In this document: positions 1,529-36,013 of the stretch, one piece after another
How the letters are laid out: the number at the start of each line of letters is the position of its first letter
Position numbering within the stretch: the first letter of the stretch is position 1
DNA from: Eledone cirrhosa
Taxonomy: Eukaryota
DNA length: 64,000 nt
Direction: 5' to 3'
Assembly (NCBI GenBank): GCA_964016885.1
Contig: OZ024741.1
Location: forward strand, 188,914,001-188,978,000
Notes under the pieces: generated by a model
Databases searched by the model: none
Told to the model about the DNA's origin: nothing
The model's input: the letters and a program-made list of their open reading frames with translations, nothing else
Made by a program: the position numbers and the translations under genes

Positions 1529-1637
1529 TTGGTATCCATCAATAATAAACATATTTAAAAATAGTAATACAGTGAAGATGAAAGGAACTAAGCTGGACTC
1601 CTTCTACACATCTATCACCACCATTCTGTCAAATGAG
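1529..1637 (+). CDS. DNAH12: Axonemal dynein heavy chain (DNAH12-like), internal exon 1 of window
   Basis: ttgcag|...GAG|gtaaga. Encodes WYPSIINIFKNSNTVKMKGTKLDSFYTSITTILSNE, resembling DNAH12 WYPKVINLF...KLDAFYSCVSTLMSNQ (from memory). Ends in phase 0, in frame with the next exon. Confidence 0.85.
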
Positions 1638-6587: not shown

Positions 6588-7737
6588 TAGGTTGTTCAGA
6601 AGTTAATGCAGGTTTTAAAAATTTTAAATGTCTATCTCAGTCCAGAATAAACTTTATTGATCTAAATAAAAACCCTTAGAATCCACACACTTTTGCCAAC
6701 AGGATACAATTTTATTTATCCTAGTAACATAGAATTTTAAAGTTCTTGAAGTGATGAATTCTTCAAAGGCATTTTTTACAGTTGTTTGCTTGTTGAAGAC
6801 TTTTCTTTGTAAGAATTGGTCAAAATGCTTGAAAAAGTGGTAACTGGTTGGTGAACAATCCAATGATTGAGTATATTGGTTGAGGCAGAGTTTTGTAGCC
6901 CAATGTGATCTACTTCTGGAGCATTGGTTGTGTGAAGTGTGATTGAGCATTGTCATGCAAAATGATTGGACCCATTCTATTGGCCAAAGCTGTATATATA
7001 CTCATGCTGCAATTTTGCATAAATTTCATCCATTTTGTGATTATACTTCTCTGCCGTGATTGTTGCGCTAGGATTCAGAAAGCTGTAGAGGATTAATCCA
7101 GCTGCAGACCACCAAACAGTCACCATAACTTTTTTTTGCTGCAACTTAATTTATGGGAAGTATTTAGGGTCTCCATCTTGGTTTGAAAGCTGTGCTGAAA
7201 GTCATTGGTTGTTATATAAGATCCATTTTTCATCACATGTCACAATGCGATAAAAAAATGGGTTGCTTTTGTTGCATAATAACGATTTTTCTGGTTTTCA
7301 TTCAATTCACGTGACACCCTTTTGGTTCAAATGTTCAAAAGTTGTTTCAATGCTTACATGTAGCTCTCCTGCAAGCTGTCAAACAGTTGTGTGAGGATTT
7401 GCTTCAATCGAAGCCTTCAGCTGATCATTTTCAATAGTAGAAGGACATCTCCAACCTTCTTTAACTTCTAGTGTGAAATCACTCTAATGGAATTTTTGAA
7501 ACCAACATTGCACTGTGACTTCATTAACAGTTCCTTGACCCCAAACTTCATTAATATTTTTAGCCATTTGTGCTGCACTGCAGCTGAGTTTAAACTCAGA
7601 AATAAATTTGCCGAAAATCCTGTTAACTTCATGGATCTGAAAATTGACAAAAATGCGATTTATATAAAAAATTATTTACATGAAAAGGAAGAACAAAAAA
7701 TAACCTTAAAAATAATACATAATTTTGCACACCTTGC
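6588..7737 (-). mobile_element. Decayed Tc1/mariner (mariner, SETMAR-like transposase) element
   Basis: ORF 6654-6956 reads SLDCSPTSYHFFKHFDQFLQRKVF...WQKCVDSKGFY (YSPDLxPxDYHFF motif and mariner C-terminus). N-terminal HTH-region remnant at 7468-7650; degenerate TIR-like ends. Confidence 0.85.
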
Positions 7738-8147
7738 ATGAGTTTTTAGTCTTAAAAAAAATGCTGAAACATATATAGTACATAGATACTATACTACATA
7801 TATACTTAATATGCATTCTACATAGATTATCAAGATTGCTTGTGACAGTACATGTGATGTGCTAAGAAAATCTTGTGAAAATATCTAAGGAGTTGGTATC
7901 TATTTTTATCTTGCACATTGTATTTCCATAAGTATCTGAATTCTTCAATTCAAAAGGAAACAAGTGGCTTGCTATCATAATCTAATTAGATTCTGTTTAT
8001 CTACATATTTATATTATCTATATATCATATCTTTTTTGTCACCTTTGTTATGTATTTATGTATTTATTTTATTGACTGATTATATGGTGTGTGTAAAACT
8101 GGTGATTGAATGATAACAAGATGCACTGGATTTTGAATTGCTGTGTG

Positions 8148-8202
<55 letters not shown>

Positions 8203-8203
<1 letters not shown>

Positions 8204-8596
8204 GTATAATAAACAATACAATTACCTCATTACCAGAGATTTCCCGAATAAGACGAATACGAAAAACGTCCTCATTCGTTTGTCGAATAAGGCAATTTAA
8301 AACATAGTGAAATATTAAAAAAATCTCCTCAAGAAAGGCAAAAGTTTAACGGGCAAAAAAAAAATATAAATAAAAGTAGTGCAAGGGATATATAAAAAAA
8401 TAAGGAAATATAGTTAGGGTATGTGTATAAATGTGTGTATATTCACTCACAAATGTACATATGTGTGTATATACAAATGCATGTGCATCGTGAAAAATTA
8501 TGTGCGTAAGTACATATATGAGGGCAAGCATATCAGTGTATGTGTGACCACAAATACATATATAATATATGTTGAAAAAGGAATTGTAAGATAATA
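8203..8596. repeat. Third copy of a 394-bp segment (direct repeat of 9478-9871; inverted copy at about 15550-15943)
   Basis: Near-identical sequence and matching ORF translations (8346-8531 vs 9621-9974). Abuts a (TA)n tract. Confidence 0.9.
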
Positions 8597-8614
8597 TTAA
8601 ACCAATGTGTGCAT

Positions 8615-10804
8615 TGGAATGTAATAAATCAAATGCGAAGAAACTAGCCGAAATATGAAGAGACAGGTCAATACAGAAATGGGCAGAAAAAAAAAAATGG
8701 GGAATGTAATAGACAATGAATACAAAGGAATTCCAATCATCACCTAACAGCCTCTAAACTTTTTTTGGTAATCACACAATTGGGAAACGTACCTCAGAGT
8801 CCTTAGAACAAAAGGGTTGTGATGGATTCTGTACTTGTCTTCAATGTTTCATCCTGGTATCACAACCATTTTGTTCTTACCTGTTCATTATTTTATCCCA
8901 TTATTTATTTACAAGGGCGGTGGTTTGGCAGTATCGGTAGAGCGTCAGACACCATGCTTTGCAGCATAGAGTTATGGCCCTTTATGGTCAAATCCCGTCG
9001 AGGTTAACTTTGCCTTTCATCCCTATGGGGTCGATAAAATAAAGCACCAGTAATGCACTGGCGTAATTGCTGGCCTTGTGCCAAAAGTAGAAAACATTAT
9101 TTATTTACAATTTTGGTGACTGAACAACGAGAATCTTTATCTGTCTGTGCGACACCGACACATGTAGTATGTCTCACGTGTTGTTCATCTCTTCTGAACA
9201 ACACCTTCCTAATTTGAAAGTCTTGTGCTAGTATGACTCTAAGCTATGGCTTTCCATCTGTCTGCCTATTTAAAAACCATAAATTTAGAGGAATCAGCTG
9301 ATGATTAGAATTTCTCTTGTATTCCTTAAGTCTTTAATATTCCACATTTTTTCCATTCCTTCTTGTCTCTGTATTTCATCCCACTCATTTATATATATAG
9401 GTATGAAGTTTCCGTTGAAAATTGAAAAAGTCATAGGAGTGAAGAGTGTTCTATGTAAGTGCCAGAGCTAAATTTAGTGTATAATAAACAATACAATAAC
9501 CTCATTACCAGAGGTTTTCCGAATAAGACGAATACGAAAAACGTCCTCATTCGTTCGTCGAATAAGGCAATTTAAAGCATAGTGAAATATTTGAAAAATC
9601 TCCTCAAGAAAGGCAAAAGTTTAACAGGCAAAAAAAATATATAAATAAAAGTAGTGCAAGAGATATATAAAAAAATAAGGAAATATAGTTAGGGTATGTG
9701 TATAAATGTGTGTATATTCACTCACAAATGTACATATGTGTGTATATACAAATGCATGTGCATAGTGAAAAATTATGTGCGTAAGTACATATATGAGGGC
9801 AAGCATATCAGTGTATGTGTGACCACAAATATGTATATAATATATGTTGAAAAAGGAATTGTAAGATAATAGAGTTAACGTACATCCAGATACAAGTATT
9901 AAGGAATGAAATATACACACATACCAGTATGAAAGCACGCGTATAAACACACACACATGTGCGATCACACACATGCGAGTGATATATACAGGGAAGGGAG
10001 TATATCAGACAAAAGGGTGTCAGTCTGAGGCTCGATACATATAAAAATGAAACAATATAAGAGAATAAAAATGTTTAAATCAAAGAGAAAGTAAGAGGGA
10101 GGGGTTATCAATTATAAATTAACACTAGAAAAAAAGAAAACAAACATAGGTTCGTACGTATACACATATATATATATAAATATATTAATGAAAAAGAACA
10201 AAGGAACTATTATGACATTACAACAAGTTTATTGCCGACAGCCGTTTCGTCCGACCATATGGTGGGACTTTTATAGAGCTTAACTAGCTACCGTCGCATA
10301 TTTGGTAGGTCAGGCGTGATCATCGCGATTCACATACGACCTACCATACATCTTGCTTATATAAATATATATATATAAATACGTACAGACAAAAGCACAT
10401 ACAAACGTACATACATACAGAGGCGCGCATACATACACACGAAGCACATATATATATATATCAGCACATGTATATCTAATCACACCTACGTACGCGACTA
10501 TATATATATATACATATACACATATACATACACATACATATATATATACATGCATATACACATACATTCACCCATACACATACACACATATATATAAGTA
10601 TGTAAAAAACATAGATATAAAAACACACATACACACACATATATACACACACACGCACACATACGAAGGCGTTCGTATACATATACAGAACACATACACA
10701 CACATGCACGCTCACACGCATAGATACAAATTATAAACCAGCCGTATGAATAAATGAGTACAAATATAAAAGTGGCTGCGAAGCAACAGAATATATCTGG
10801 AGTT
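8615..10804. repeat. Left arm of large inverted duplication IR1
   Basis: Reverse complement of 11268-11550 plus 15120-16807. Identical ORF translations on opposite strands (8819-9007 + and 16415-16603 -). Confidence 0.95.
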
Positions 10805-11267
10805 ATATATCCAAGGTATCCAATATAAATTGGATTGGTCAATTTTGAACCAATCTAAAGAATATGCAAGAGGAACAAGAAGATGCACACTCTGCATAAG
10901 TGAAAAATATTGGATTTTACAGTATCTTAAATCACCAAAAACCTACCTAAATGCAAAAACAAAAATTTTCACCAGTTGCCCACACATGAAATCACACTTC
11001 CTTTCCAGCCCATGTAAACTTAACTCACTTTCAGATACTTATCCTCCATAAACTCTTGTTCTTCACTTTCCTTAAATTATCCTCTTTACAGACTTCTCTT
11101 TCTGATTTATTTTTAACTTTATTTTTATTTTTACATTTTACTTCACATCCACCAGTGACCCCCCCACCCCCACACTTTTTGATTCACTTACCTAATATCT
11201 TCACAATTCCACATTTTACTTCTCCATTTTCTTTCACTACCTGTTATCACATGTCACTTGCGTTTTC
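10805..11267 (+). mobile_element. Penelope-like element 3' fragment (GIY-YIG endonuclease C-terminus plus 3' UTR); spacer of IR1
   Basis: ORF 10830-11051 WSILNQSKEYARGTRRCTLCISEKYWIL...LNAKTKIFTSCPH matches the W.IL...Y.....C.LC..EK..I....LN.......C.H C-terminus typical of PLE ORFs. Confidence 0.8.
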
Positions 11268-11550
11268 AACTCCAGATATATTCTGTTGCTTCGCAGCCGC
11301 TTTTATATTTGTACTCATTTATTCATACGGCTGGTTTATAATTTGTATCTATGTGTGTGAGCGTGCATGTGTGTGTATGCATTCTGTATATGTATACAAA
11401 CGCCTCCGTATGTGTGCGTGTGTGTGTATATATGTGTGTTTTTATATCTATGTTTTTTACATACTTATATATACGTGTGTGTGTGTGTATGGGTGAATGT
11501 ATGTGTATATGCATGTATATATATATATATTTATGTGTGTATATGTATAT

Positions 11551-14500
11551 AACTCTCTCCTCCTCTGGCGCAGCCCAACACACCCTGCCATTATCCCACC
11601 ACCACTGTTCTTCTAGCCCTCAATTTTCCCACCGTTATGGATGGATGAGCTGAGAATAAATTTGAGCAACTCTGAATCAATAGATGAAATATGAATCTGC
11701 GAGCTACCAAGCACCCACGTGAAACGCCAACCCAGAGACCCTCCCCTATGAGTGTCGACAAATGCCCAAAACTCCGAGTTGGAACCATCAATGTAGGCTC
11801 AATGAAAGGAAGAGCAGGAGAAATCGTAGAAATGCTAGAGCGAAAGGAAATTGACGTATGCTGTGTGCAAGAGACAAGATGGAGAGGAGAGTCTGCTAGA
11901 GTCCTTGTAGGAAAAAGTCGGTGCTACAAATTTTTCTGGGTGGGAAATGATGATGGGATGGGTGGTGTAGGTATACTACTAGCTGACAAGTGGGTAGATA
12001 AAGTAATCTCAGTGTACAGGGTAAACGCAAGAATCATTAAACTCAGACTAGTCCTGAATAAAACAATTACCACAATAATATCAGCTTACGCACCCCAATC
12101 GGGGCTGCCAGACGAACTTAAGGATAGGTTTTACGAGTCCCTAATACACACTACTGCTCTAACAGACGACAAGGACTTCCTAATCATCGCAGGAGATTTT
12201 AACAGACACGTAGGTAAACACTGCGACGGCTACAATAGAGTACATGGAGGCCATGGGGTTGGCACAAGGAATGAGGAAGGATTCAGACTTCTAGAATTCT
12301 GCGACGCCAATGACATGTCGATATGTAACACAAACTTTAAAAAACCCGACAACCACCTGATCACCTATAGATCAGGGGAGCACTCTAGTCAGTTAGATTT
12401 TATCCTCATCAGAGGACGTGACAGATGGACGGTCGTAAACACAAAAGCCTTCCCTAGTGAGGAATGTACATCCCAACATAGCTTAGTTGTCAGCGACCTC
12501 ACGGTCAGAACTAGACGAGCCCTGAAACAGAGGCCAACCTGGAGAAGGAAGATCTGGAAGCTGAAAGTCCCCTCAACCAGTAACAGATTTAAAGATATTT
12601 TACTCAACGCCTACGACAGTAAAGAAGAACAGATAGAGACATTTAATGTAGAAGAGAACTGGGAGTTCCTAAAAAATAATTTACTAGAGGCGACGGACGA
12701 GGTCTGTGGCTGGAGTAAGACCTCAAGCAGGAGGAGAGTGACTTGGTGGTGGAACAATAAGGTAGATGAAGCAGTCAAGGCCAAGAGACAGGCATGGAAA
12801 GAATGGAAGAACGGGGGGAGCAGGGTACATTACATAGAGACCAAGAGGGAAGCTAGGCGACAAGTATACTTAGCTAGGAGGGAAGCAGAGGATAGAAAAT
12901 TCAAGCATGTTTTACAACGTGAGGACCAGAAACAAGAGGTATTCAAGATTGCGAGGCAGTGTGTCAGAGATAGTTGTGATGTCATTGGAGAGAAGTGTAT
13001 CCGGAATGATAAAGGTGAGCTTGCCCTCACAAGTGCTGAGAAGAAAGATGCATGGAAGAGTCATTATGATAGATTACTAAATGAGGAGAATGCATGGGAA
13101 GAAGAGACCCTACCCCAAGTAGACCCTATAGAGGGACCGGCAGTACAAGTGAGCGGCGGCGTAGTAAGTAAGGCAATCAGAGATATGAAGATGGGGAAGG
13201 CAACCGGTCCATCGGGTATAGCTGCCGAGATGCTGAAGGCATCTGGGTCTGTAGGTCACACTATAACCACACGTATCGTTAACCAGGTAATACTAGAAGG
13301 GGCCATACCAAAAGATTGGTGCAGTAGCATCATTGTCAACTGCTACAAAGGTAAAGGCGATGCACTAGATAGAGGAAACTATAGAGGTATAAAGTTGATG
13401 GACCAGGTCATGAAAGTAACAGAAAGAGTTATAGCACAGCTGATTAGGGACCGGGTGAAAATAGACGAGATGCAATTTGGGTTTGTACCAGGAAGAGGCA
13501 CCACTGATGCCCTCTTCCTTGTGAGGCAATTACAGGAAAAGTACCTAGCTAAAAGTAAGCCACTCTACTTGGCATTTGTCGACCTTGAGAAAGCTTTTGA
13601 CAGAGTTCCACGTGCTGTAATCTGGTGGGCTCTTAGAAAACTAGGAGTAGAGGAATGGCTTGTGAAAGCGGTACGAGCCATGTATAGGGGAGCAGTCAGC
13701 AAAGTTAGGATTAGCAATGAGTATAGCGAGGAATTTAGCGTACAGGTTGGGGTCCACCAGGGCTCTGTTCTTAGCCCTCTCCTGTTCATCATAGTCCTGC
13801 AGGCAATAACGGAGGAGTTTAGGACCGGATGCCCATGGGAACTCCTGTATGCTGATGACTTCGCACTCATAGCTGAATCTATGGTAGAACTAGAGAATAA
13901 ATTCCAAACCTGGAAGCAGGGACTAGAAAGAAAGGGTCTCAAAGTCAACATGACAAAGACTAAGGTCCTTGTAAGTAGACGAGAAAACAGAACCCAGATT
14001 CCCTCAGGGAAATGGCCTTGCTCAGTATGTAGGAAAGGTGTAGGTAGGAACTCCATTCTCTGCCCCAAATGCAAACAATGGGTACACAAGAGATGTAGCG
14101 GGATCTCAGGAAGCTTAATTAAGAATGTAGGATTCACATGCAGCAGCTGTGCTGAGACAGCAAACAGCAAACAGCCACAGGAAACAAGTACCACCAATCT
14201 CTGGGAGGGCTCTGTAGAAACAGTTGACAGCTTCTGCTACCTAGGTGACCGAATTAGCAACGGAGGTGGGTGTTCAGAAAGTGCAATAACTAGGGTAAGA
14301 ACGGGATGGAAGAAGTTTAGGGAACTACTACCACTGCTAGCTGCAAAAGGCTTCTCCCTCAGAATGAAAGGCAGACTGTATGATGCGTGTATCCGAACAG
14401 CGATGTTGCATGGTAGCGAGACCTGGGCGCTGAAGGTGGAAGACTTACGTAGATTAGAGAGAAACAAAGCCTGCATGCTCCGATGGATGTGTAACAATAA

Positions 14501-15120
14501 TATACGTGAACGACAAAGCATAAATGAATTGAGAGAGAGACTGAGCATAAGAGGAATCAAATGCTGTGTGCAGGAGAGGCGGTTGCGCTGGTATGGACAT
14601 GTGATGCGTATGAAGGATGATAGCTGCATAAAAAGGTGCAGAGCACTAGAAGTTGATGGAAACCGCGGAGTGGGGAGACCCAAGATGACCTGGGATGAGG
14701 TGATAAAAGCCGACCTTACCTAATTACACCTCTCAAAGACAATGACACACGACCGTGACTTCTGGCGTCACGCAGTAATGCAGAGTACCCGACCTCCCAT
14801 GGGTACACGCTGAAGCATATAGACAATATGCCCCATGCCCCCCACCGCAGTGTGGTCATGGAGGTGCCACGGAAAAAAAGCACCCAGCCCACACTGTAAA
14901 GTGGACGTGTAAGCGCCACGGAAAAAAAGTACCCAGCACTCACTGTAAATGAGGTTGGTGTTAGGAAGGGCATCCAGCTGTAGAAACCAAGCCAAATCAG
15001 TTCCTGTATGAGCAAGGCATGGTCAGCCGACCAGACACTGCCCACAACAGGACAACCCGTCTAACCCATGCTAGCGTGGAAGAACGGACGTAAAACGGTG
15101 ATGATGATGATGATGATGAT
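11551..15120 (+). mobile_element. Near-full-length RTE-clade LINE with (GAT)n tail, inserted in a (TA)n tract
   Basis: Short 5' region, a single long ORF, and a 3' UTR ending GGACGTAAAACGGT(GAT)n. The flanks rejoin to the uninterrupted sequence in the left arm of IR1. Confidence 0.95.
11691..14723 (+). CDS. RTE ORF: apurinic-like endonuclease, reverse transcriptase and PHD-type zinc finger
   Basis: 1010 aa. APE motifs TINVGS, QET, GDFN, DFIL, SQH. RT motifs KGKGD...NYRGI, QFGF, DLEKAFD, GVHQGSVLSPLLF, YADD. C4HC3 finger CSVC...CPKC..WVHKRC...CSSC. Confidence 0.95.
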   Translation: MNLRATKHPRETPTQRPSPMSVDKCPKLRVGTINVGSMKGRAGEIVEMLERKEIDVCCVQETRWRGESARVLVGKSRCYKFFWVGNDDGMGGVGILLADKWVDKVISVYRVNARIIKLRLVLNKTITTIISAYAPQSGLPDELKDRFYESLIHTTALTDDKDFLIIAGDFNRHVGKHCDGYNRVHGGHGVGTRNEEGFRLLEFCDANDMSICNTNFKKPDNHLITYRSGEHSSQLDFILIRGRDRWTVVNTKAFPSEECTSQHSLVVSDLTVRTRRALKQRPTWRRKIWKLKVPSTSNRFKDILLNAYDSKEEQIETFNVEENWEFLKNNLLEATDEVCGWSKTSSRRRVTWWWNNKVDEAVKAKRQAWKEWKNGGSRVHYIETKREARRQVYLARREAEDRKFKHVLQREDQKQEVFKIARQCVRDSCDVIGEKCIRNDKGELALTSAEKKDAWKSHYDRLLNEENAWEEETLPQVDPIEGPAVQVSGGVVSKAIRDMKMGKATGPSGIAAEMLKASGSVGHTITTRIVNQVILEGAIPKDWCSSIIVNCYKGKGDALDRGNYRGIKLMDQVMKVTERVIAQLIRDRVKIDEMQFGFVPGRGTTDALFLVRQLQEKYLAKSKPLYLAFVDLEKAFDRVPRAVIWWALRKLGVEEWLVKAVRAMYRGAVSKVRISNEYSEEFSVQVGVHQGSVLSPLLFIIVLQAITEEFRTGCPWELLYADDFALIAESMVELENKFQTWKQGLERKGLKVNMTKTKVLVSRRENRTQIPSGKWPCSVCRKGVGRNSILCPKCKQWVHKRCSGISGSLIKNVGFTCSSCAETANSKQPQETSTTNLWEGSVETVDSFCYLGDRISNGGGCSESAITRVRTGWKKFRELLPLLAAKGFSLRMKGRLYDACIRTAMLHGSETWALKVEDLRRLERNKACMLRWMCNNNIRERQSINELRERLSIRGIKCCVQERRLRWYGHVMRMKDDSCIKRCRALEVDGNRGVGRPKMTWDEVIKADLT

Positions 15121-16826
15121 ATATATAGTTGCGTATGTACGTGTGATTAGATATAAATGTGCCGATATATATATATGTGCTTCGTGTGTATGTATGCGCG
15201 CCTCTGTATGTACGTTTGTATGTGCTTTTGTCTGTACGTATTTATATATATATATGTGTGTTCGTACGAACCTATGTTTGTTTTCTTTTTTTCTAGTGTT
15301 AATTTATAATTGATAACCCCTCCCTCTTACTTTCTCTTTGATTTAAAAATTTTTATTCTCTTATATTGTTTCATTTTTATATGTATCGAGCCTCAGACTG
15401 ACACCACTTTGGCTGATAGACTCCCTTCCCTCTATATATCACTCGCATGTGTGTGATCGCGCGTGTGTGTGTGTTTATACGCGTGCTTTCATACTGGTAT
15501 GTGTGTATATTTCATTCCTTAATACTTGTATCTGGATGTACGTTAACTCTATTATCCTACAATTCCTTTTTCAACATATATTATATATGTATTTGTGGTC
15601 ACACATACACTGATATGCTTGCCCTCATATATGTACTTACGCACATGATTTTTCACTATGCACATGCATTTGTATATACACACATATGTACATTTGTGAG
15701 TGAATATACACACATTTATACACATACCCTAACTATATTTCCTTATTTTTTTATATATCTCTTGCACTACTTTTATTTATATATTTTTTTTGCCTGTTAA
15801 ACTTTTGCCTTTCTTGAGGAGATTTTTCAAATATTTCACTATGCTTTAAATTGCCTTATTCGACGAACGAATGAGGACGTTTTTCGTATTCGTCTTATTC
15901 GGAAAACCTCTGGTAATGAGGTTATTGTATTGTTTATTATACACTAAATTTAGCTCTGGCACTTACATAGAACACTCTTCACTCCTATGACTTTTTCAAT
16001 TTTCAACGGAAACTTCAATACCTATATATATAAATGAGTGGGATGAAATACAGAGACAAGAAGGAATGGAAAAAATGTGGAATATTAAAGACTTAAGGAA
16101 TACAAGAGAAATTCTAATCATCAGCTGATTCCTCTAAATTTATGGTTTTTAAATAGGCAGACAGATGGAAAGCCATAGCTTAGAGTCATACTAGCACAAG
16201 ACTTTCAAATTAGGAAGGTGTTGTTCAGAAGAGATGAACAACACGTGAGACATACTACATGTGTCGGTGTCGCACAGACAGATAAAGATTCTCGTTGTTC
16301 AGTCACCAAAATTGTAAATAAATAATGTTTTCTACTTTTGGCACAAGGCCAGCAATTACGCCAGTGCATTACTGGTGCTGTATTTTATCGACCCCATAGG
16401 GATGAAAGGCAAAGTTAACCTCGACGGGATTTGACCATAAAGGGCCATAACTCTATGCTGCAAAGCATGGTGTCTGACGCTCTACCGATACTGCCAAACC
16501 ACCGCCCTTGTAAATAAATAATGGGATAAAATAATGAACAGGTAAGAACAAAATGGTTGTGATACCAGGATGAAACATTGAAGACAAGTACAGAATCCAT
16601 CACAACCCTTTTGTTCTAAGGACTCTGAGGTACTTTTCCCAATTGTGTGATTACCAAAAAAAGTTTAGAGGCTGTTAGGTGATGATTGGAATTCTTTTGT
16701 ATTCATTGTCTATTACATTCCCCATTTTTTTTTTTCTGCCCATTTCTGTATTGACCTGTCTCTTCATATTTCGGCTAGTTTCTTCACATTTGATTTATTA
16801 CATTCCACACAGATATATATTAGGCA

Positions 16827-17160
16827 TATGGCTTAGTGGTTAGAGCATTGGCCTTGCAATCAAAAGGTTGTGAGTTCAATTCTCAGACCGGGTGATATGT
16901 TGTTTCCTTGAGCAAGAGACTTTATTTCACATTGCTCCAGTTTACTCAGCTGTAGAAATGAGATGATAGGGACTGGGGTCTCTATCATTCCACTGCAAAG
17001 TGGTCGTGGAGGTGCCACGGCAAAAAAAGCACCCAGCACTCACTGTAAATGAGTTGGTGTTAGGAAGGGCATCCAGCTGTAGAAATCAAGCCAAAATCAG
17101 TTCCCGTCCCACCCTTGCAAGCAGGGAAAAGCGGACGTAAAATGAAATGATGATGATGAT
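16827..17160 (+). mobile_element. tRNA-headed SINE family B with RTE-derived 3' tail
   Basis: TGGCTTAGTGGTTAGAGC (A box), GAGTTCAATTC (B box), a CCTTGAGCAAG core, then TTGGTGTTAGGAAGGGCATCCAGC shared with the RTE 3' UTR, and (TGA)n. Confidence 0.85.
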
Positions 17161-17326
17161 ATGAAAAATGAAATGATGATATATATATATATATATCATC
17201 ATCATCATCACCACCACCACTTAACATCCATTTTTCCACACTAGTATGGCTTAGATGAGTTGTCCCATTGTGAGACAAGTCAGATCAGGCAACCGTGTCT
17301 TGCTCATTCAGAACTGATATACATAT

Positions 17327-17480
17327 ATATGAAAAGATTCAGGACTCCGACGGCTGAGCTCCAGATCTAGCTGTCGAAATGGCCAGAGCTCAGCCGTCAG
17401 GGTCCTGAATCTTTTCATATTACCCACTCTACTACCCCAAGTATCGAGTATCATGGTGGGTTATGGTCAGGTAGTGCATA
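17327..17480 (+). repeat. Palindromic short element, copy 1 (94-bp hairpin plus conserved tail)
   Basis: ATATGAAAAGATTCAGGACTCCGACGGCTGAGCTC pairs with GAGCTCAGCCGTCAGGGTCCTGAATCTTTTCATAT. Tail TACCCACTCTACTACC is shared with the 24111 copy. Confidence 0.85.
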
Positions 17481-17492
17481 TATATAATGTAG

Positions 17493-17526
<34 letters not shown>

Positions 17527-17640
17527 TTTAAAAAAATGAAAACGAAATTTCATTTCTCACTCTTAGTATGGCACTTACTTAAATGTAAGTATGTATGTAT
17601 ACGTACATACATATATGTATACAGACGTACAGTAGCATGC

Positions 17641-17672
<32 letters not shown>

Positions 17673-17974
17673 GCATACAGGTACACATACATATATGCAC
17701 GCATCAGTTTAGCCAACGTTTATTATAACGCCGGCCGTTTTGTTCGTTTGTTTGTCAACAAACCGAACAGCCTGAATTTATGCCATACGGTGTTAAGGCA
17801 ACCACGTCACCTTTTTGTTCAACACTGACACAGGAACGATGTACTAGTTTCAAGCTTGTTAGCTATCATCAGCACCGTTTACCCATCTGTTATATATATA
17901 TATATATATATATTAGAAAGTGAGGTTTTTTTTACAAAATGAAAAATAACCAAGGTGTCCTACACGAGTGAAAG

Positions 17975-19141
17975 TATAAAGAAAAAGAGATGAAATCGAA
18001 AATGCAACTGGAGTCTTATTTTTTTTTAAAATATATATATTTATTTGGTTCCTTTACCGGTTTCGCAGTTCTTCTGCTTTTCAAAAGGTGAGTTGAGATG
18101 GAGGGTCTGTGGTTTTTCTCACATCTGGTTGGTCTCTGAATGTTACTTGTTTTATATGGAAAAAGTGGCTCAAAATGCCAGGTTTTTCGAGAAGTAATTT
18201 GATTGTTTTGTCAATAATTATAATAAATTTCGCGCCAGTTCGCGTTACAATAGTTCTTCAAATAAGAGGGGGGAGGTTGTCACAGGTTGTTTTTTCATAT
18301 ATGAGTATTTGAATTTCTTTTTACTTGAAAAAAGGGGGCTCACGAAGGCTTTTTTTTGGTTGGTTATAAATGAAATTATGGCTGTCACGTGAACAAGTTT
18401 TCATTAAATTTTTGTGCCCTTATTTGGAAATCCATTCTGTAGCCTTTTTAGAGAATTTTATGATAAGTGAAAGATAATTGTTTCTACTTTAGGCACAAGG
18501 CCAGCAATTACCCAGTGTGTTACTGGTACTTTATTTCATCGACCCCGTAAGGATGAAAGGCAAAAGATAATGGTCAAGAGAAAGGGATGGGAGAATTGTT
18601 CTGGTTCAGTGAATATGGTTAGTTCGCTGGGGTGTCAGAATTCAGATTTTCTATTGAATAAAGAAAGTAAAGATATGTATGTTTATTTGTGTGCTTGTGT
18701 GTGTGTGCGTGTGTGTGTGTGTGTGTTTGAATTTCTTTACTTTAAAAAGGTGGCTCACGAAGGCTTTTTTTTAATAAACGTGATTTGATTGGTTATAAAT
18801 GAAATTTGGCTGTCACGTGAACAAGTTTTCATTACATTTTTGCGCCCTTATTTGGAAAACTATTCTGTAGCCTTTATAGAGAATGTTATGACAATGGAAA
18901 GATAGTGGTCAAGAGAAATGGGATTGGGAGAATTGTTCTGGTTCAGTGAATATGGTTAGTTCGCTCGGGTGTCAGAGTTCAGATTTTCTATTGAAGTGAA
19001 GATATGTATGTTTAGAAAATAAAAACCCGAACTAAATAAACCTTAACATACGTTTGCACTGACAATACAACAGAGCAAATACGAATAAGTAAGGAAAATA
19101 TGTTCATTCAAAAATATTCCTACTAAAGGAATCATTTTCCT

Positions 19142-19180
<39 letters not shown>

Positions 19181-20426
19181 ATATATATATATATTCTCTT
19201 CATCTTAACATGCTAACCAAACTCCCACACACATAACACCCATACACACACATAACAACCCCCACACCCACAACTCCCTCCCCCATTTCTACTAATAGAA
19301 CCACTTTCCTACACATATATATACACACACACAAAATATATATTCTCTCCATCTTAACATACTCGCACACACACACATAACACCCATATACACACACACA
19401 CAACTCCCTCCCCCATTTCTACTAATAGAATCATCTTCCAATACACACACACACACATACACACACACAAGCACACAAATAAACTTCACTTCAATAGAAA
19501 ATCTGAACTCTGACACCCCAGCGAACTAATCATATTCACTGAACCAGAACAATTCTCCCAATCCCATTTCTCTTGACCACTATCTTTCCATTGTCATAAC
19601 ATTCTCTATAAAGGCTACAGAATAGTTTTCCAAATAAGGGTGCAAAAATGTAATGAAAACTTGTTCACGTGACAGCCAAATTTCATTTATAACCAATCAA
19701 ATCACGTTTATTAAAAAAAAGCCTTCGTGAGCCACCTTTTTTAAAGTAAAGAAATTCAAACACACACACACACACACGCACACACGCACACACACACAAG
19801 CACACAAATAAACATACATATCTTTACTTTCTTTATTCAATAGAAAATCTGAATTCTGACACCCCAGCGAACTAACCATATTCACTGAACCAGAACAATT
19901 CTCCCATCCCTTTCTCTTGACCATTATCTTTCACTTATCATAAAATTCTCTAAAAAGGCTATAGAATGGATTTCCAAATAAGGGCACAAAAATTTAATGA
20001 AAACTTGTTCACGTGACAGCCATAATTTCATTTATAACCAACCAAAAAAAAGCCTTCGTGAGCCCCCTTTTTTCAAGTAAAAAGAAATTCAAATACTCAT
20101 ATATGAAAAAACAACCTGTGACAACCTCCCCCCTCTTATTTGAAGAACTATTGTAACGCGAACTGGCGCGAAATTTATTATAATTATTGACAAACCAATC
20201 AAATTACTTCTCGAAAAACCTGGCATTTCGAGCCACTTTTTCCATATAAAACAAGTAACATTCAGAGACCAACCAGATGTGAGAAAAACCACAGACCCTC
20301 CATCTCAACTCACCTTTTGAAAAGCAGAAGAACTGCGAAACCGGTAAAGGAACCAAATAAATATATATATTTTTAAAATAAATAAGACTCCAGTAGCATT
20401 TTCGATTTCATCTTTTTTTCTTTATA
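17975..20426. repeat. Inverted duplication IR2 (arms 17975-19001 and 19484-20426; spacer about 480 bp)
   Basis: Arms are reverse complements, with near-identical ORF translations on opposite strands (18109-18312 + and 20089-20292 -). Each arm contains an internal tandem duplication. Confidence 0.95.
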
Positions 20427-20892
20427 TATATATATATATATATGTAGATAAATAAGTATTTTATATATATATATATATATAATGTAGTGAATTTTGTAAA
20501 AAAAAATTTATATCTAAAGTTAGCAGAGTACTCCATCCAAGGGTTGAGTTGTGATATACATAATTTGGTTAGATTCTCAACATATTTCCATCCATTGAAA
20601 TGTATGTATTCAACAAATGAAAATGTAAACTTAACCAAATTTTGTGCGTGTGTGTGTATATATATATGTTTGAAATGTGTATATCCCAATGCAAATGAAT
20701 GTAATAATAGTCAATCATTATAAAGAACATTAGTACCCCTGGCAACAGAAAAAGTACATAGAAATGCCTACAATATAATCAAACACCAAATTTCTCAGAT
20801 GTTAAATGAGTGTGTTAACCATTATGCCATCTTTTTTAGAAATCTTCTAAAAATAAAAGATGGAATTGGTGGCCAGTGGCTCTTTAACCAGG

Positions 20893-21510
20893 GAGCATGG
20901 TTTTTATGCTTGGATGCCCTTCCTAATGCCAGCCACTTTTCAGTGTGTACTAGAAGCATGGTTTCTATTGCTGGATGCCCTTCCTAATGCCAGCCACTTT
21001 TCAGTGTGTACTAGAAGCATGGTTTCTATTGCTGGATGCCCTTCCTAATGCCAGCCACTTTTCAGTGTGTACTAGAAGCATGGTTTCTATTGCTGGATGC
21101 CCTTCCTAATGCCAGCCACTTTTCAGTGTGTACTAGAAGCATTGTTTCTATTGCTGGATGCCCTTCCTAATGCCAGCCACTTTTCAGTGTGTACTAGAAG
21201 CATGGTTTCTATTGCTGGATGCCCTTCCTAATGCCAGCCACTTTTCAGTGTGTACTAGAAGCATGGTTTCTATTGCTTGGATGCCCTTCCTAATGCCAGC
21301 CACTTTTCAGTGTGTACTAGAAGCATGGTTTCTATTGCTTGGATGCCCTTCCTAATGCCAGCCACTTTTCAGTGTGTACTAGAAGCATGGTTTCTATGGC
21401 TGGATGCCCTTCCTAACACAAACCCTTTTGCAGTGTGTACTGGGAGCATAGTTTCTATGGCTAGATGCCCTTCCTAATACCAATTCCTTTACAGAATGTA
21501 CTGGGAGCAT
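20893..21510. repeat. 61/62-bp minisatellite, about 10 copies
   Basis: Unit AGCATGGTTTCTATTGCTGGATGCCCTTCCTAATGCCAGCCACTTTTCAGTGTGTACTAGA; central copies are nearly identical. Confidence 0.95.
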
Positions 21511-22365: not shown

Positions 22366-22714
22366 TTGAAAGACATCCTAGTACGAACCATCAATGATTT
22401 CGTATCCCTGTTTGAAGAAAACAACTTGAAGCATTTGCCTCTTCTCAAAATGGAACTGACATTTGATGATGAAAAGATGCAATTCTACCCACCGAGTGGT
22501 GACTTAGAAGAGACCTTGGTGTTCGTTGTTGAATCGATATGCGGCACATTGCAGCAGCTGCCTACAGTTAAGTCTTGGCTGGCTGAAACCCATCGCAACA
22601 CAGAAACTATTGATACCAAAGTTGCCGAGCATATAATTCTGAAAGCCAAACATAAACTCCAGTGTGCAGTTGATAGGAATTTCCTCGACCCTGAAAAACA
22701 ACTTCAGGCTTTTG
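22366..22714 (+). CDS. DNAH12: DNAH12-like exon 2 of window
   Basis: Polypyrimidine tract-CAG acceptor and G|gtcagt donor. LKDILVRTINDFVSLF...LPLLKMELTFDDEKMQFYP...DLEE resembles DNAH12 LPIFKIELTFDDDKMEFYP. 349 nt, phase 0 to 1. Confidence 0.92.
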
Positions 22715-30656: not shown

Positions 30657-31820
30657 CAAGGTACATAAAAGAAGTTTTAAGAGTTTTATTAGAGAGACAT
30701 TTGACTCAGATTAACATAAAAATAGTCTCCCTCAAAGTAGGATCCTCCAACTTCAATGCACTTGTAGTGCCTCAGCCACTTCTGGAAGGCCCCCTTGTAG
30801 TCCTCCAAAGTGAAGGTCTCCAGTGTGCTTGTCACAGCCTCTTTCATCTCCTCAACATCCTCAAAGCAGGTACCCCTGAGCTTCTTCAGCTTCGAGAACA
30901 ACCAAAAGTGACATGGGGCTAAGTCTGGACAGTAGGAAGGATGAGGAACAGTCTTAATCAACATATCAGCCAAGTAGTTGATCACCAGGATGGATTTGTG
31001 GTAGGGCCATTGTCCTGGTGCAGGTGCCACTGATCAGACTTGAAGAGTTCTGGTCTCTTATGATGACATCTCTTTCTGAACTTCCTCAAAACCTCTACAT
31101 AATACTCTGTTGACTTCCTGGCCATGGGGGGCTCAGTGGATGTATATGATGCCCTTGCTGTCGAAAGATGGGATCATCATGAGCTTCCCAGTGGATTTGC
31201 TTTGCCTGGCCTTCTTGGGTTTTGGGGAATCAGAATATTTCCACTGGTAAATCTGTCTCTTCATTTCTGGATAATAACAGTAGACCCAGCTCTCGTCACA
31301 ACATGCCTCTGCTGTCATCAATGTGCCTCTGCTTTTGATCTTCATTGAGTACCATGTGAACAAACTTTGCACATGTTCAGATCGTAATGAATGACGCTGT
31401 GTACAGTGCCCTCAGCCACTTCAAATTGTTTAGCAATCATCAGAAGAGATGCACGATGGTCCTTGTTCAGAAATTTGTGAATTGTGGCAACCAACTTTCA
31501 CCTCCTGATGTCTCTCTCCCTGCCACACCTCTCGTCATCCCTCACTTGCTCCCTGACCTCCTGAAACCTCTCGTGCCAGCAAAAAAACAGTTGCCTAGCT
31601 CATGAAAGTTATTCCATAAGCAGATTTGACCAGTTCATAGATTTCTTCAGTGTTTTTGCTGAGCTTCACACAAAACCTTATTGCATATTGAGCCTCCAAG
31701 TTGTCCTCATATCCTCACTGTATTGTGGAAGCAGTCACCTGTGACAAGATGTGTATGACAGGTAGTCTTTCAAGTGCTGCAGCGGCCTGAAAAAGTTCGG
31801 AACTTCTTGAGTGTACCTCG
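30657..31820 (-). mobile_element. Decayed mariner transposon with TIRs and TA TSDs
   Basis: PHPSYCPDLAPCHFWLFSKLK and DESWVYCYYPE motifs. TIRs CAAGGTACATAAAAGAAGTT and AACTTCTTGAGTGTACCTCG are flanked by TA. Confidence 0.9.
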
Positions 31821-34069: not shown

Positions 34070-36013
34070 ATTAATATTGTCGGGCAATATTTCTGTCATG
34101 AAATTGGCCAAAGCACACTTTACATAATGGCACTTTGCAAAAGCAACACATGAAAGATGTTCCTATCTGGTAACCTTTAGCAGTTTTTCTCTTTTGCAAA
34201 GAGCACATTCTGCAAATTTTCTTCTTCCCATTAATTTTTTTCTATCTCATGAAAATCAATATTTTCTCTGTTAACATCTAGTTCAGATAGTTTTGATTTT
34301 CTCCCAGCTCTGTGTTTGTGGCAAGTGTACCCCACCATATAACTGTGATGCAACATCCACACAAAATTTCATGTGGCAGTGGTCTTTAGTTGTGGTGGAT
34401 CCTTGTGGCTTTTACTGAATACAATAAAAGAATTTACAATGGTTAAATTCGCTAAAAACCACATTTCTTTCCAGGACATCCAACTAAGTAGCATTCATAA
34501 TATTGGTTAGATTTGTCAACCCCACCCATGTATTTATTGTAGGAAATATTTACTAAAGGTTTGCCTTCAGTCCAAACACCTGGTTATTGATTTGAAAACA
34601 AGAATAACATTTGCTGTTTGTTCTTGCATAATGTGGCTAGCATGTTTCTTTTTTGCACCTGGAGAATGTCTCCTCATTTTTTAAATTTTGTGCATTTTAT
34701 TTTTTGAGGCAACCCCTTGCGATTCCCTGTTATTGTACTGCAGATGTACGTGTTTACGAGGGCAAGATGCTTTGCCAATAGCATTGAAGAAAAAATATGG
34801 TCAAAATATCCATGTCTGTGTTGAGAGTGGAAAGGTTCAGTCAGGGACCACACAACATCATATCCTAATACATTTTGTCTCACTCTGTTATATTTTTCCT
34901 GTGTAAACATTGAAGTTTGCACAGTAGCCTGTGTCCAATTCACAAAGCTCCCTTACCTTGATGTCCCATTTGGTGGGTTTAACTGGCACATATTGTTGGA
35001 AATGTACCCTACCTTTATAGCCAGTCATTACTTTATCAACACTAAGATTTTTTCCAGGTACATACATAGTTTTAGATTTCTCAGATAATAAATCAAGTAT
35101 TCGGCAGACTCTATACAAAGGATCATAATTTACTTTATTCCTACCGGGGACATTGGAAGTATCAGCCAAGTGCAAATATTGGTTTAATTTAAAAGAGCTG
35201 GTTTTAGGCATATATAAGGGTCACCATACCTTATATCTTGGCCCCAGTAATTCCACAGTCTTGGAAATTGTTTTATACCAAATATAATATTTATCTATAT
35301 ATAAATTTGAACAACTTCCCTCCATCCGTCCGCCACACAATGTGTGTGTGTGTAAAAGGAAGGAAGGCGATGGTGAAAAAACTATAGCAAAACAGTGGCT
35401 GCACTGCATTTGCTACACTGTTCATGAGTGTGTTTGTGTAAACGTATGTGTATATGTGTTTGTGTGAATATATGTGTATTTGTGAGAGTGTATTTTTGTC
35501 ATTGTGTCTGTGTTTGCACATTTATATTTATACACTCATACATATAAATGTATGCATTTGCACATACACATACACATACGTGTCAGCATGTTGAAAAAAA
35601 TTCTAGTTGTAAAAAATGCTTGAATTTTGTCAGTCAGCATTATAGATTGGGTTTTCCTCGATTAGAAATGATTTGTTGGGCATACCAATTTGTCTCTGCT
35701 GCCATGGCTTCAAAGAAAGTCTGGCAAAAACAAAAAAAAATAATTCAATGGTTGAGCATTGGGAGGTAGAGAATGTTGTCAACCAGATTTTTCAATAAAA
35801 TCAGGAATATGTACTAGTGTTGTGTTCTTCAACCATGTCACTGTAATATTTTCAATGGCATAATGGAAATCATCTTCACTTTCACTATCAAAATAACAAT
35901 CAACATTGGATGAAAATTCAGAAATATATCCAATTCATTTGAAGATAAATCACTGTTATTTTCTTTTTTCTTTTTCTTCATTTTGTAAGTCAGTATCACT
36001 GCTTTCAGAAGCC
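34070..36013 (-). mobile_element. piggyBac (PGBD4-like) transposase relic
   Basis: LHLAD...DPLYRV..ILD...YVPGKNLSVDKVMTGYKGRVHFQQYVPVKPTKWDIK...TGYCANFNVYTGK; YNKYMGGVD remnant near 34520; AETNWYAQQ near 35690; C-terminal Cys-rich remnant; interrupted and frameshifted. Confidence 0.85.

What the first reader, a model, noticed from the sequence alone, without database searches (positions are those of the whole stretch)
8203..16807. 2.2-kb-arm inverted duplication wrapped around a Penelope endonuclease fragment
Seen in sequence: arms 8615-10804 and 11268-16807 (minus the LINE) are near-identical reverse complements, and the 463-bp spacer is the 3' end of a PLE GIY-YIG ORF. The arms hold the putative element 3' region, ending about 20 nt after a hammerhead-like fold. 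They also hold about 860 bp of host-like DNA containing an older SINE with its own TSD. A third copy of the terminal 394 bp sits just outside. Established: PLEs form inverted pseudo-LTRs and flanking 'tail' extensions. Inference: one PLE integration with template switches duplicated host intron DNA and created a kilobase-scale hairpin in the pre-mRNA. That is a candidate ADAR or small-RNA substrate, notable if the host is a cephalopod.
Basis: partly seen in the sequence, partly recalled or inferred. Interest (0 to 1): 0.75.

Follow-up and report, generated by a model that had tools for sequence, protein, structure and literature searches.

The report
Two-age inverted repeat from Penelope insertion
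An ordinary two-armed Penelope-type jumping gene in a dynein intron carries a rare back-to-front copy of 772 bases of neighbouring host DNA, and because its arms are of two different ages the copy was likely made by a later DNA-repair slip between the arms rather than in one jump.

Summary
The inverted repeat is real in the assembly: 33 substitutions in 1,969 aligned bases. The core is a 5'-truncated Hydra-clade Penelope-like element in a (TA)n tract, inside a 20.7-kb intron of a DNAH12-like gene. Two-armed insertions are routine for this family (27 of 80 loci). The copied host flank is 772 bp, not 860, and 0 of 80 family loci show such a copy. The arms have two ages: 8615-9773 differ at 4 of 1,159 sites, 9774-10804 at 29 of 810. 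Both arms share derived alleles that the third copy lacks, so sequence passed between them long after insertion. One integration alone cannot explain this. Best reading (0.5): a later template switch between the old inverted arms inserted a copy of the right end plus flank into the left arm, a miniature DUP-NML-INV/DUP. Close rival (0.33): fold-back at integration, then gene conversion. Editing, small RNAs and a cephalopod host were not tested, and a tighter hairpin lies 1 kb away in the same intron. The scan noted similar events on other DNA (unchecked AI notes). Modest interest.

The parts
1530..1637 (+). Exon of a DNAH12-like axonemal dynein heavy chain gene; 5' side of the host intron (GT at 1638)
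   Evidence: phmmer match to DNAH12 residues 262-303, E=1.2e-4; splice site read from sequence
8146..8201 (.). (TA)n tract, left side of the insertion target
   Evidence: sequence; most family 3' ends abut (TA)n
8203..8596 (-). Third copy (A): untailed 3' end of the Hydra-clade element; old stratum
   Evidence: 12/390 differences to each arm; ends at the family's untailed end point
8597..8614 (.). 18-nt junction filler; its last 13 nt plus the next 3 form a 6-bp hairpin (snap-back synthesis inferred)
   Evidence: sequence; the junction 30-mer occurs once in the genome with up to 1 mismatch
8615..9386 (-). Inverted copy of 772 bp of host flank (matches 16036-16807), with an older SINE at 8915-9094 and its 16-bp TSD
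   Evidence: 4 substitutions in 772; non-SINE parts found only at these two places
9387..9773 (-). Left arm, young part: element tail (9387-9477) and 3' end
   Evidence: 0 substitutions and 1 indel in 387 against the right arm; shared derived alleles at 9477, 9518, 9577, 9626
9774..10804 (-). Left arm, old part: 3' UTR of the element
   Evidence: 29 substitutions in 810 aligned bases, 6 indel events, 10 of 33 CpG sites decayed
10183..10364 (-). 181-bp insertion of another short repeat with a degenerate hammerhead-like motif, in a TA tract, left arm only
   Evidence: 1,342 candidates genome-wide; 9 of 9 examined loci carry it without Hydra flanks; motif read by eye
10805..10810 (.). 6-nt central filler at the inversion point, in register with a TTGAAA microhomology between the arm end and the family ORF
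10811..11048 (+). Last codons and stop of the Hydra-clade ORF (GIY-YIG endonuclease C-terminus with CxxC..E..N..CxH)
   Evidence: family copies continue upstream into the GIY-YIG and RT domains; tblastn to a full-length relative E=4e-7
11049..11267 (+). 3' UTR, unpaired part of the spacer
11268..11551 (+). Right arm, inner piece of 3' UTR
11552..15119 (+). RTE-type LINE in a TA tract of the right arm; stop-to-stop frame 11688-14723 (1,011 aa: AP endonuclease, RT, PHD)
   Evidence: best of 24 siblings 98.6% identical, 23 private sites in 3,563; 'RTE' label recalled
15120..16035 (+). Right arm: 3' UTR, hammerhead-like fold (about 15849-15921, core C3 mutated in all three window copies) and tail (15944-16035)
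16036..16807 (+). Original host flank, starting with the right half of the (TA)n target (inferred original)
   Evidence: follows the tailed end as in family copies; continuous with downstream DNA
22366..22714 (+). Next exon of the DNAH12-like gene; intron 1638-22365 is 20,728 nt, GT-AG, phase 0
   Evidence: match to DNAH12 residues 296-413, E=1.3e-23

Best explanation
This is a two-armed Hydra-clade Penelope-like insertion whose left arm likely gained, much later, an inverted copy of the right end plus 772 bp of host flank through a template switch between the old arms. Step 1 (shown for anatomy, inferred for mechanism): the element entered a (TA)n tract primed from both cut strands, giving a tailed sense copy (10811-16035) and an untailed inverted arm (third copy plus 9774-10804). 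Step 2 (shown): a LINE and a 181-bp repeat later landed in the old parts. Step 3 (inferred): a broken end in the left arm near 9626-9774 invaded the homologous right arm, copied through the tail and 772 bp of flank to 16807, and rejoined the rest of the left arm through an 18-nt snap-back filler, duplicating about 100 bp (9774-9871). Whether the template was DNA or the plus-strand host pre-mRNA cannot be told from sequence.
For: Strata 4/1159 vs 29/810, p=5e-8; CpG decay 0/19 vs 10/33, p=0.009. Both arms share derived alleles absent from the third copy and have no private substitution in 9387-9773. Third copy vs right arm (12/390) looks like a normal family pair (median 3.7%, minimum 1.2%, 24 pairs). 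Family ends: 24 of 28 outward-facing pairs are one tailed plus one untailed; the single tailed-tailed pair (L190) is an internal pLTR. Flank copy in 0 of 80 loci. Longest substitution-free run is 731 nt here and at most 181 nt in 19 family pairs, so long conversion is not routine; this model needs one rare event, the rival two. The inner edge of the young stratum falls inside the stretch covered by the third copy. One homologous and one filler junction match the DUP-NML-INV/DUP pattern of oppositely oriented LINEs or Alus (PMC6902434, passages).
Against: Three of the four young-stratum substitutions lie in the outer 174 bp (3/174 vs 1/985, p=0.012, boundary chosen after looking). That outer piece is not distinguishable from the old stratum (p=0.34), and one change is a CpG decay on the right arm, so not a copying error in the new copy. 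In the duplicated 100 bp, left arm and third copy share no derived allele and differ at 9832-9833. The model needs an original inverted arm of about 1.15 kb, while family arms have a median of 475 nt and only 1 of 24 exceeds 1.1 kb; the 394-nt third copy is a typical arm length. The tailed/untailed rule also fits the fold-back rival. No empty-site or pre-switch allele was seen.
Confidence: 0.5

Rival explanations
1. Fold-back at integration plus later gene conversion. The first cDNA folded back at the central microhomology and copied itself, its tail and 772 bp of resected flank, then joined the short second cDNA (third copy). Much later a conversion tract of 730-990 nt homogenised the middle of the arms.
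For: Outer 174 bp fits the old rate. The third copy has a typical short-arm length. Microhomology in register at the centre. L1 insertions with local inversions and inverted duplications at integration are reported (bioRxiv 10.1101/2024.12.14.628481, passages). Host DNA captured between pLTRs is reported for rotifer Penelopes (PMC3846280, parts 2-3).
Against: Needs two rare events: flank copies in 0 of 80 loci, and no run over 181 nt in 19 family pairs. The tract's inner edge must fall by chance inside the third copy's span. The A11 and T8 runs in the outer 174 bp are unchanged between arms.
Confidence: 0.33
2. One integration with template switches and no later exchange, possibly with two different source RNAs giving the apparent old divergence.
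For: All three copies share alleles seen nowhere else: a 26-nt pattern hits only these three places in the genome.
Against: The inner arms are each other's nearest neighbours at 9872-10160 and share unique alleles, so they come from one source (at 10655-10804 other copies are as close). Most differing alleles are absent from 62 family copies. The LINE has 23 private sites in 3,563 (0.65%, an upper bound on its age) against 0.17% per arm in the young stratum. Two later insertions sit in the old parts.
Confidence: 0.05
3. Assembly artefact: a fold-back read or two haplotypes joined in mirror image.
For: The 0.35% outer divergence is of the order of heterozygosity (general knowledge). Depth ratios conflict: 19.2 vs 17.5 in X1 and 10.0 vs 3.0 in X3. 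No listed contig bridges the filler junction.
Against: Arm-specific insertions and 29 inner differences. Contigs of X1 and X2 start at exactly 8615 with left-arm alleles; the X3 contig carries the right-arm allele at 8727 and 43 further letters before 8615; the right-arm +T at 9403 is seen in X1, X2 and X3. A graph break at 8615 is what two real junctions would give (inference). These three runs are one sample and may be the assembly's source.
Confidence: 0.06
4. The 772 bp is a 3' transduction from a source element elsewhere, or part of the element's consensus.
For: 9387-9477 did prove to be element sequence.
Against: Non-SINE parts of 8615-9386 match only these two places; family copies stop at 9387. 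The search skips common words and the assembly may be incomplete.
Confidence: 0.03

Closest known systems
Hydra clade of C-terminal EN+ Penelope-like elements, e.g. Hydra-1_Obim of Octopus bimaculoides (Craig et al. 2021, PMC8557442: passages, section 11, supplement rows and excerpts)
   Same: RWK, DKT, CxCX5C linker, CxxC..E..N..CxH endonuclease end, (TA)n target, inverted 5'-truncated copy, tail at one end.
   Different: 3' UTR about 1.3 kb, so full copies are about 3.6-4 kb rather than under 3 kb; tail 91 nt rather than 30-40; hammerhead core has U4C and a long stem II; here an extra tailed arm with host flank.
PLE tail from two internal RT start sites, with both target strands cut and extended (Frangieh et al. 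2024, PMC11167929, parts 1-2 of 4 read)
   Same: Two fixed 3' end points, one at each end in 24 of 28 inverted pairs.
   Different: Shown in vitro for a Poseidon element; says nothing on flank duplication.
DUP-NML-INV/DUP and DUP-TRP/INV-DUP rearrangements at inverted repeats (PMC6902434, PMC11293582; passages)
   Same: Duplicated piece, normal middle, inverted duplicated piece; one junction in homology between inverted repeats, the other with a short filler.
   Different: 1.3 kb in all rather than tens of kb to Mb; the repeats are the two arms of one insertion; age and order are inferred from divergence, not from a family trio.
L1 insertions with local inversion or inverted duplication (bioRxiv 10.1101/2024.12.14.628481, passages)
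   Same: Host DNA beside the insertion site copied in inverted orientation with hairpin-like junctions.
   Different: Those arise at integration and give arms of one age; here the arms have two ages.
Host DNA captured between pLTRs in Adineta vaga (PMC3846280, abstract and parts 2-3 of 5)
   Same: [quoted passage not shown]
   Different: There the cargo moved to a new site with a TSD; here it is the adjacent flank and no TSD can be read in (TA)n.

Membership tests
Hydra-clade PLE | C-terminal GIY-YIG endonuclease after the RT in one ORF | tested here: met
   Family copy L049 aligns over RT and EN to full-length relatives P0003 and P0005; IVY...YVG motif upstream of the window fragment
Hydra-clade PLE | RWK motif and DKT in place of DKG | tested here: met
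   RMRWKAL and SDKTKNLY in L049; 95 and 97 of 98 long relatives
Hydra-clade PLE | CxCX5C linker; CxxC and CxH around the conserved E and N | tested here: met
   CSCRVKSEC in L049; CTLC..E..N..CPH in the window spacer
Hydra-clade PLE | No internal CCHH motif in the endonuclease | tested here: inconclusive
   None seen by eye in translations; no alignment to CCHH-bearing clades was made
Hydra-clade PLE | Insertion into (TA)n | tested here: met
   Most of 81 listed 3' ends are followed by TA repeats
Hydra-clade PLE | Hammerhead ribozyme in the pLTR | tested here: inconclusive
   Three helices pair in 96.8% of cells in 47 distinct copies but with no covariation above shuffles; core has U4C; no Rfam hammerhead at E<=1 in 7500-21000; C3 mutated in the window copies
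Hydra-clade PLE | RT phylogeny groups with Hydra | not tested
   Compared by eye with Hydra-1_Obim excerpts in the supplement; no tree built
DUP-NML-INV/DUP | Two duplicated segments around a single-copy middle, one inverted | tested here: met
   9774-9871 present twice on the left; 15648-16807 copied inverted; middle single
DUP-NML-INV/DUP | One junction within pre-existing inverted repeats, the other with microhomology or a templated insert | tested here: inconclusive
   Allele switch between 9626 and 9774 and an 18-nt filler are seen, but a conversion edge looks the same
DUP-NML-INV/DUP | A parental allele with the inverted repeats but without the duplication | not testable with these tools
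   No relative genome held; no joint of this kind among those listed
ADAR-hyper-edited intronic dsRNA | Both arms in one transcript | tested here: met
   Both lie in intron 1638-22365 of a predicted gene; expression not shown
ADAR-hyper-edited intronic dsRNA | A-to-G clusters in RNA reads against matched DNA | not testable with these tools
   No RNA run was available to lay

The most novel reading that the evidence does not exclude
Every two-armed Penelope insertion is a ready-made kilobase inverted repeat, and in genomes with thousands of them they seed germline micro-duplications of host DNA by template switching: a PLE-driven, kilobase-scale counterpart of Alu- and LINE-mediated DUP-NML-INV/DUP, datable from the strata in the arms.
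Probability: 0.4. Interest if true: 0.5.

Novelty: new member of a known kind. Interest (0 to 1): 0.3.

Why it matters
If the two-step reading holds, it is a clean, datable case of a retroelement's own inverted arms driving a structural variant, and it shows that flank-containing palindromes at PLE sites should not be read as footprints of integration without an age test. If the fold-back rival holds, it records a repair step of PLE integration, which is still poorly known. Either way it is rare (0 of 80 sister loci), lies deep in an intron, and has no shown effect on the gene.

Tried and rejected
No RNA holder listed, so editing and small RNAs could not be examined. Contig depth as copy number: ratios 1.1 (X1) and 3.3 (X3) conflict and the tool warns against this use. 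Runs X5 and X6 gave only short repeat matches, no empty site. Rfam gave no hammerhead; its miRNA hits are microsatellite matches below threshold. Pfam did not recognise the spacer peptide or the L049 RT. A first idea that the inner arms came from two subfamilies was dropped after full alignment showed shared unique alleles. The idea that 10183-10364 is a deletion in the right arm was dropped: family copies lack it. Seven other loci with the same 5-nt deletion were found; the five that aligned long enough lack the window's other alleles. Seven flank-duplication candidates in 6 of 80 loci were other repeats, an LTR-like insert or direct repeats; L088, L092, L190 and L193 were read as sequence, L062 and L098 judged from coverage and orientation only. 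Host lineage: protein searches with two dynein exons gave one unnamed hit and no hit. Paper searches listed no report of a flank-containing inverted duplication at a PLE site; the library lacks most subscription papers and bioRxiv supplements were not seen.

Full report
1. Observation. Self-BLAST and global alignment confirm the arms: 8615-10804 against the reverse complement of 11268-11551 plus 15120-16807, with 33 substitutions in 1,969 aligned bases. The right arm holds a 3.57-kb LINE with AP-endonuclease, RT and PHD domains. The left arm holds a 181-bp insert of another repeat family. The third copy is at 8203-8596. The locus lies in a 20,728-nt GT-AG intron between two consecutive exons matching DNAH12 residues 262-303 and 296-413, on the plus strand.

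2. The element. The spacer gave 1,538 candidates in the 3.0-Gb genome, 40 scored. Other copies run upstream into a GIY-YIG and RT ORF. The motifs given for the Hydra clade in PMC8557442 section 11 are present: RWK, DKT, CxCX5C, CxxC..E..N..CxH and (TA)n targets. The supplement lists an octopus member, Hydra-1_Obim, which resembles L049 by eye; no tree was built and the host was not identified by any search. Family copies end at two points, equivalent to about 15943 (untailed) and 16035 (tailed). So 9387-9477 is element tail and the host part is 772 bp. A hammerhead-like fold can be drawn just before the untailed end; its helices pair in 96.8% of cells but show no covariation above shuffles, and core C3 is mutated in all three window copies. 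Two RT start sites with a tail between them, and extension of both target strands, were shown in vitro for a Poseidon element (PMC11167929, parts 1-2).

3. What is ordinary. I fetched 80 family loci of 9.9 kb, chosen as best matches to the spacer, to the tailed end, or to a shared deletion; this is a biased sample of over 1,500 candidates. 27 of 80 carry outward-facing inverted pairs. Of 28 pairs, 24 are one tailed plus one untailed, 2 tailed plus partial, 1 both untailed, and 1 both tailed, where the second end is an internal pLTR. Arm divergence has a median of 3.7% and a minimum of 1.2% in 24 pairs. The third copy and the right arm form such a normal pair: untailed plus tailed, 12/390.

4. 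What is unusual. The host flank is found only at the two window places. None of 80 family loci, and none of 20 loci of the neighbouring family, shows an inverted flank copy within the stretch fetched. The arms have strata: 3/174 at 8615-8788, 1/985 at 8789-9773, 29/810 at 9774-10804. Young against old gives p=5e-8; CpG decay is 0/19 against 10/33. Against family copies, left and right share derived alleles at 9477, 9518, 9577 and 9626 that the third copy lacks, and have no private substitution before 9774. The longest substitution-free run is 731 nt, against at most 181 nt in 19 family pairs; L073 was left out because its best pair was another repeat. All three copies come from one source: a 26-nt pattern hits only these three places. 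The LINE's 23 private sites in 3,563 (0.65%, upper bound) exceed the 0.17% per arm of the young stratum. It is therefore shown that sequence passed between the arms long after the insertion.

5. Mechanism. Best reading (0.5, inferred): the original left arm was the third copy continuous with 9872-10804. A later break near 9626-9774 invaded the right arm, copied its end, tail and 772 bp of flank, and rejoined at 8596 through an 18-nt filler with a 6-bp hairpin, leaving about 100 bp duplicated. This is the DUP-NML-INV/DUP layout that oppositely oriented LINEs and Alus produce in people (PMC6902434, passages; PMC11293582, passages). Rival (0.33): the first cDNA folded back at the central TTGAAA microhomology and copied itself and the flank at integration, as reported for some L1 insertions (bioRxiv 10.1101/2024.12.14.628481, passages), and a later conversion erased the middle differences. 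For the rival: the outer 174 bp fits the old rate (p=0.34) better than the middle (p=0.012, post hoc), one outer change is a CpG decay on the right arm, the third copy has a typical short-arm length, and only 1 of 24 family arms exceeds 1.1 kb. Against it: it needs two rare events. The tailed/untailed rule fits both. The data do not separate them cleanly.

6. Is the assembly right? Contigs of X1 and X2 begin at exactly 8615 with left-arm alleles. The X3 contig has the right-arm allele at 8727 and 43 extra letters that I could not see. The right-arm +T at 9403 appears in all three. This fits two real junctions, but the runs are one sample, depth is inconclusive, no listed contig bridges the filler and no long reads were held.

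7. The dsRNA claim. A pre-mRNA could pair 1.16 kb at 99.65% across a 5.9-kb loop (from sequence). This was not tested. It would be ordinary: editing of inverted repeats, Penelope included, is known across animals (PMC5625713, passages), and a pair of about 950 bp at 98-99% with a 0.5-kb loop lies at 17975-20426 in the same intron.

8. Papers and notes. Besides those cited: PMC3846280 (abstract, parts 2-3 of 5), PMC13334657 (abstract and outline only), bioRxiv 10.64898/2026.07.22.740005 (passages, not used). Searches listed no report of this arrangement at a PLE site. Earlier AI notes of the scan describe similar events in other genomes under both readings and the two end points in this genome; my two-step reading was written down before I saw them, while the fold-back form of the rival was prompted by them.

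9. Verdict. Real, partly as described; a known element with a rare, mechanistically ambiguous flank duplication. New member of a known kind; interest 0.3.

Noticed in passing
window 17915-20426: A second two-armed insertion of another high-copy family (2,687 candidates), tailed on the left and untailed on the right, arms 98-99% identical about 0.5 kb apart, with a 91-bp SINE piece in the left arm. Loci L199 and L208 link the family to an RT plus GIY-YIG ORF that looks Neptune-like (label recalled).
   Followed up: partly
window 17530-17890: Fragment with a canonical hammerhead core on the minus strand at about 17872; a related unit forms a tandem and inverted array in L208:1300-2900, like a retrozyme.
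   Followed up: partly
window 9989-10015: Five substitutions in 27 bp, with the right arm matching its subfamily, so probably one clustered event on the left arm.
   Followed up: partly
window 11552-15119: Near-intact young LINE; a private C-to-T at 14721 gives a stop about 30 codons before the family's end.
   Followed up: partly
window 1530-62700: DNAH12-like gene on the plus strand with exons near 1530, 22366, 40376, 42415, 46308, 59491 and 62499.
   Followed up: partly
window 20894-21510: Tandem array of about ten 61-bp units related to the LINE 3' end.
   Followed up: no
window 6980-7675, 31136-31411, 34074-35220: Decayed mariner-type and piggyBac-type (DDE_Tnp_1_7) transposase remnants.
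   Followed up: no
L193:4870-6984: 2.1-kb insert with 367-bp direct repeats at 99.2%, LTR-like, without a clear coding frame, inside a Hydra arm.
   Followed up: partly
L199:2231-2501 and L059:2984-3358: Inverted arms with clustered differences (runs of 213 and 166 nt without substitution), possibly short conversion tracts.
   Followed up: no
L058:149-2449: 767-aa frame of a different Penelope-like RT, Naiad- or Poseidon-like by recall, next to a Hydra copy.
   Followed up: no
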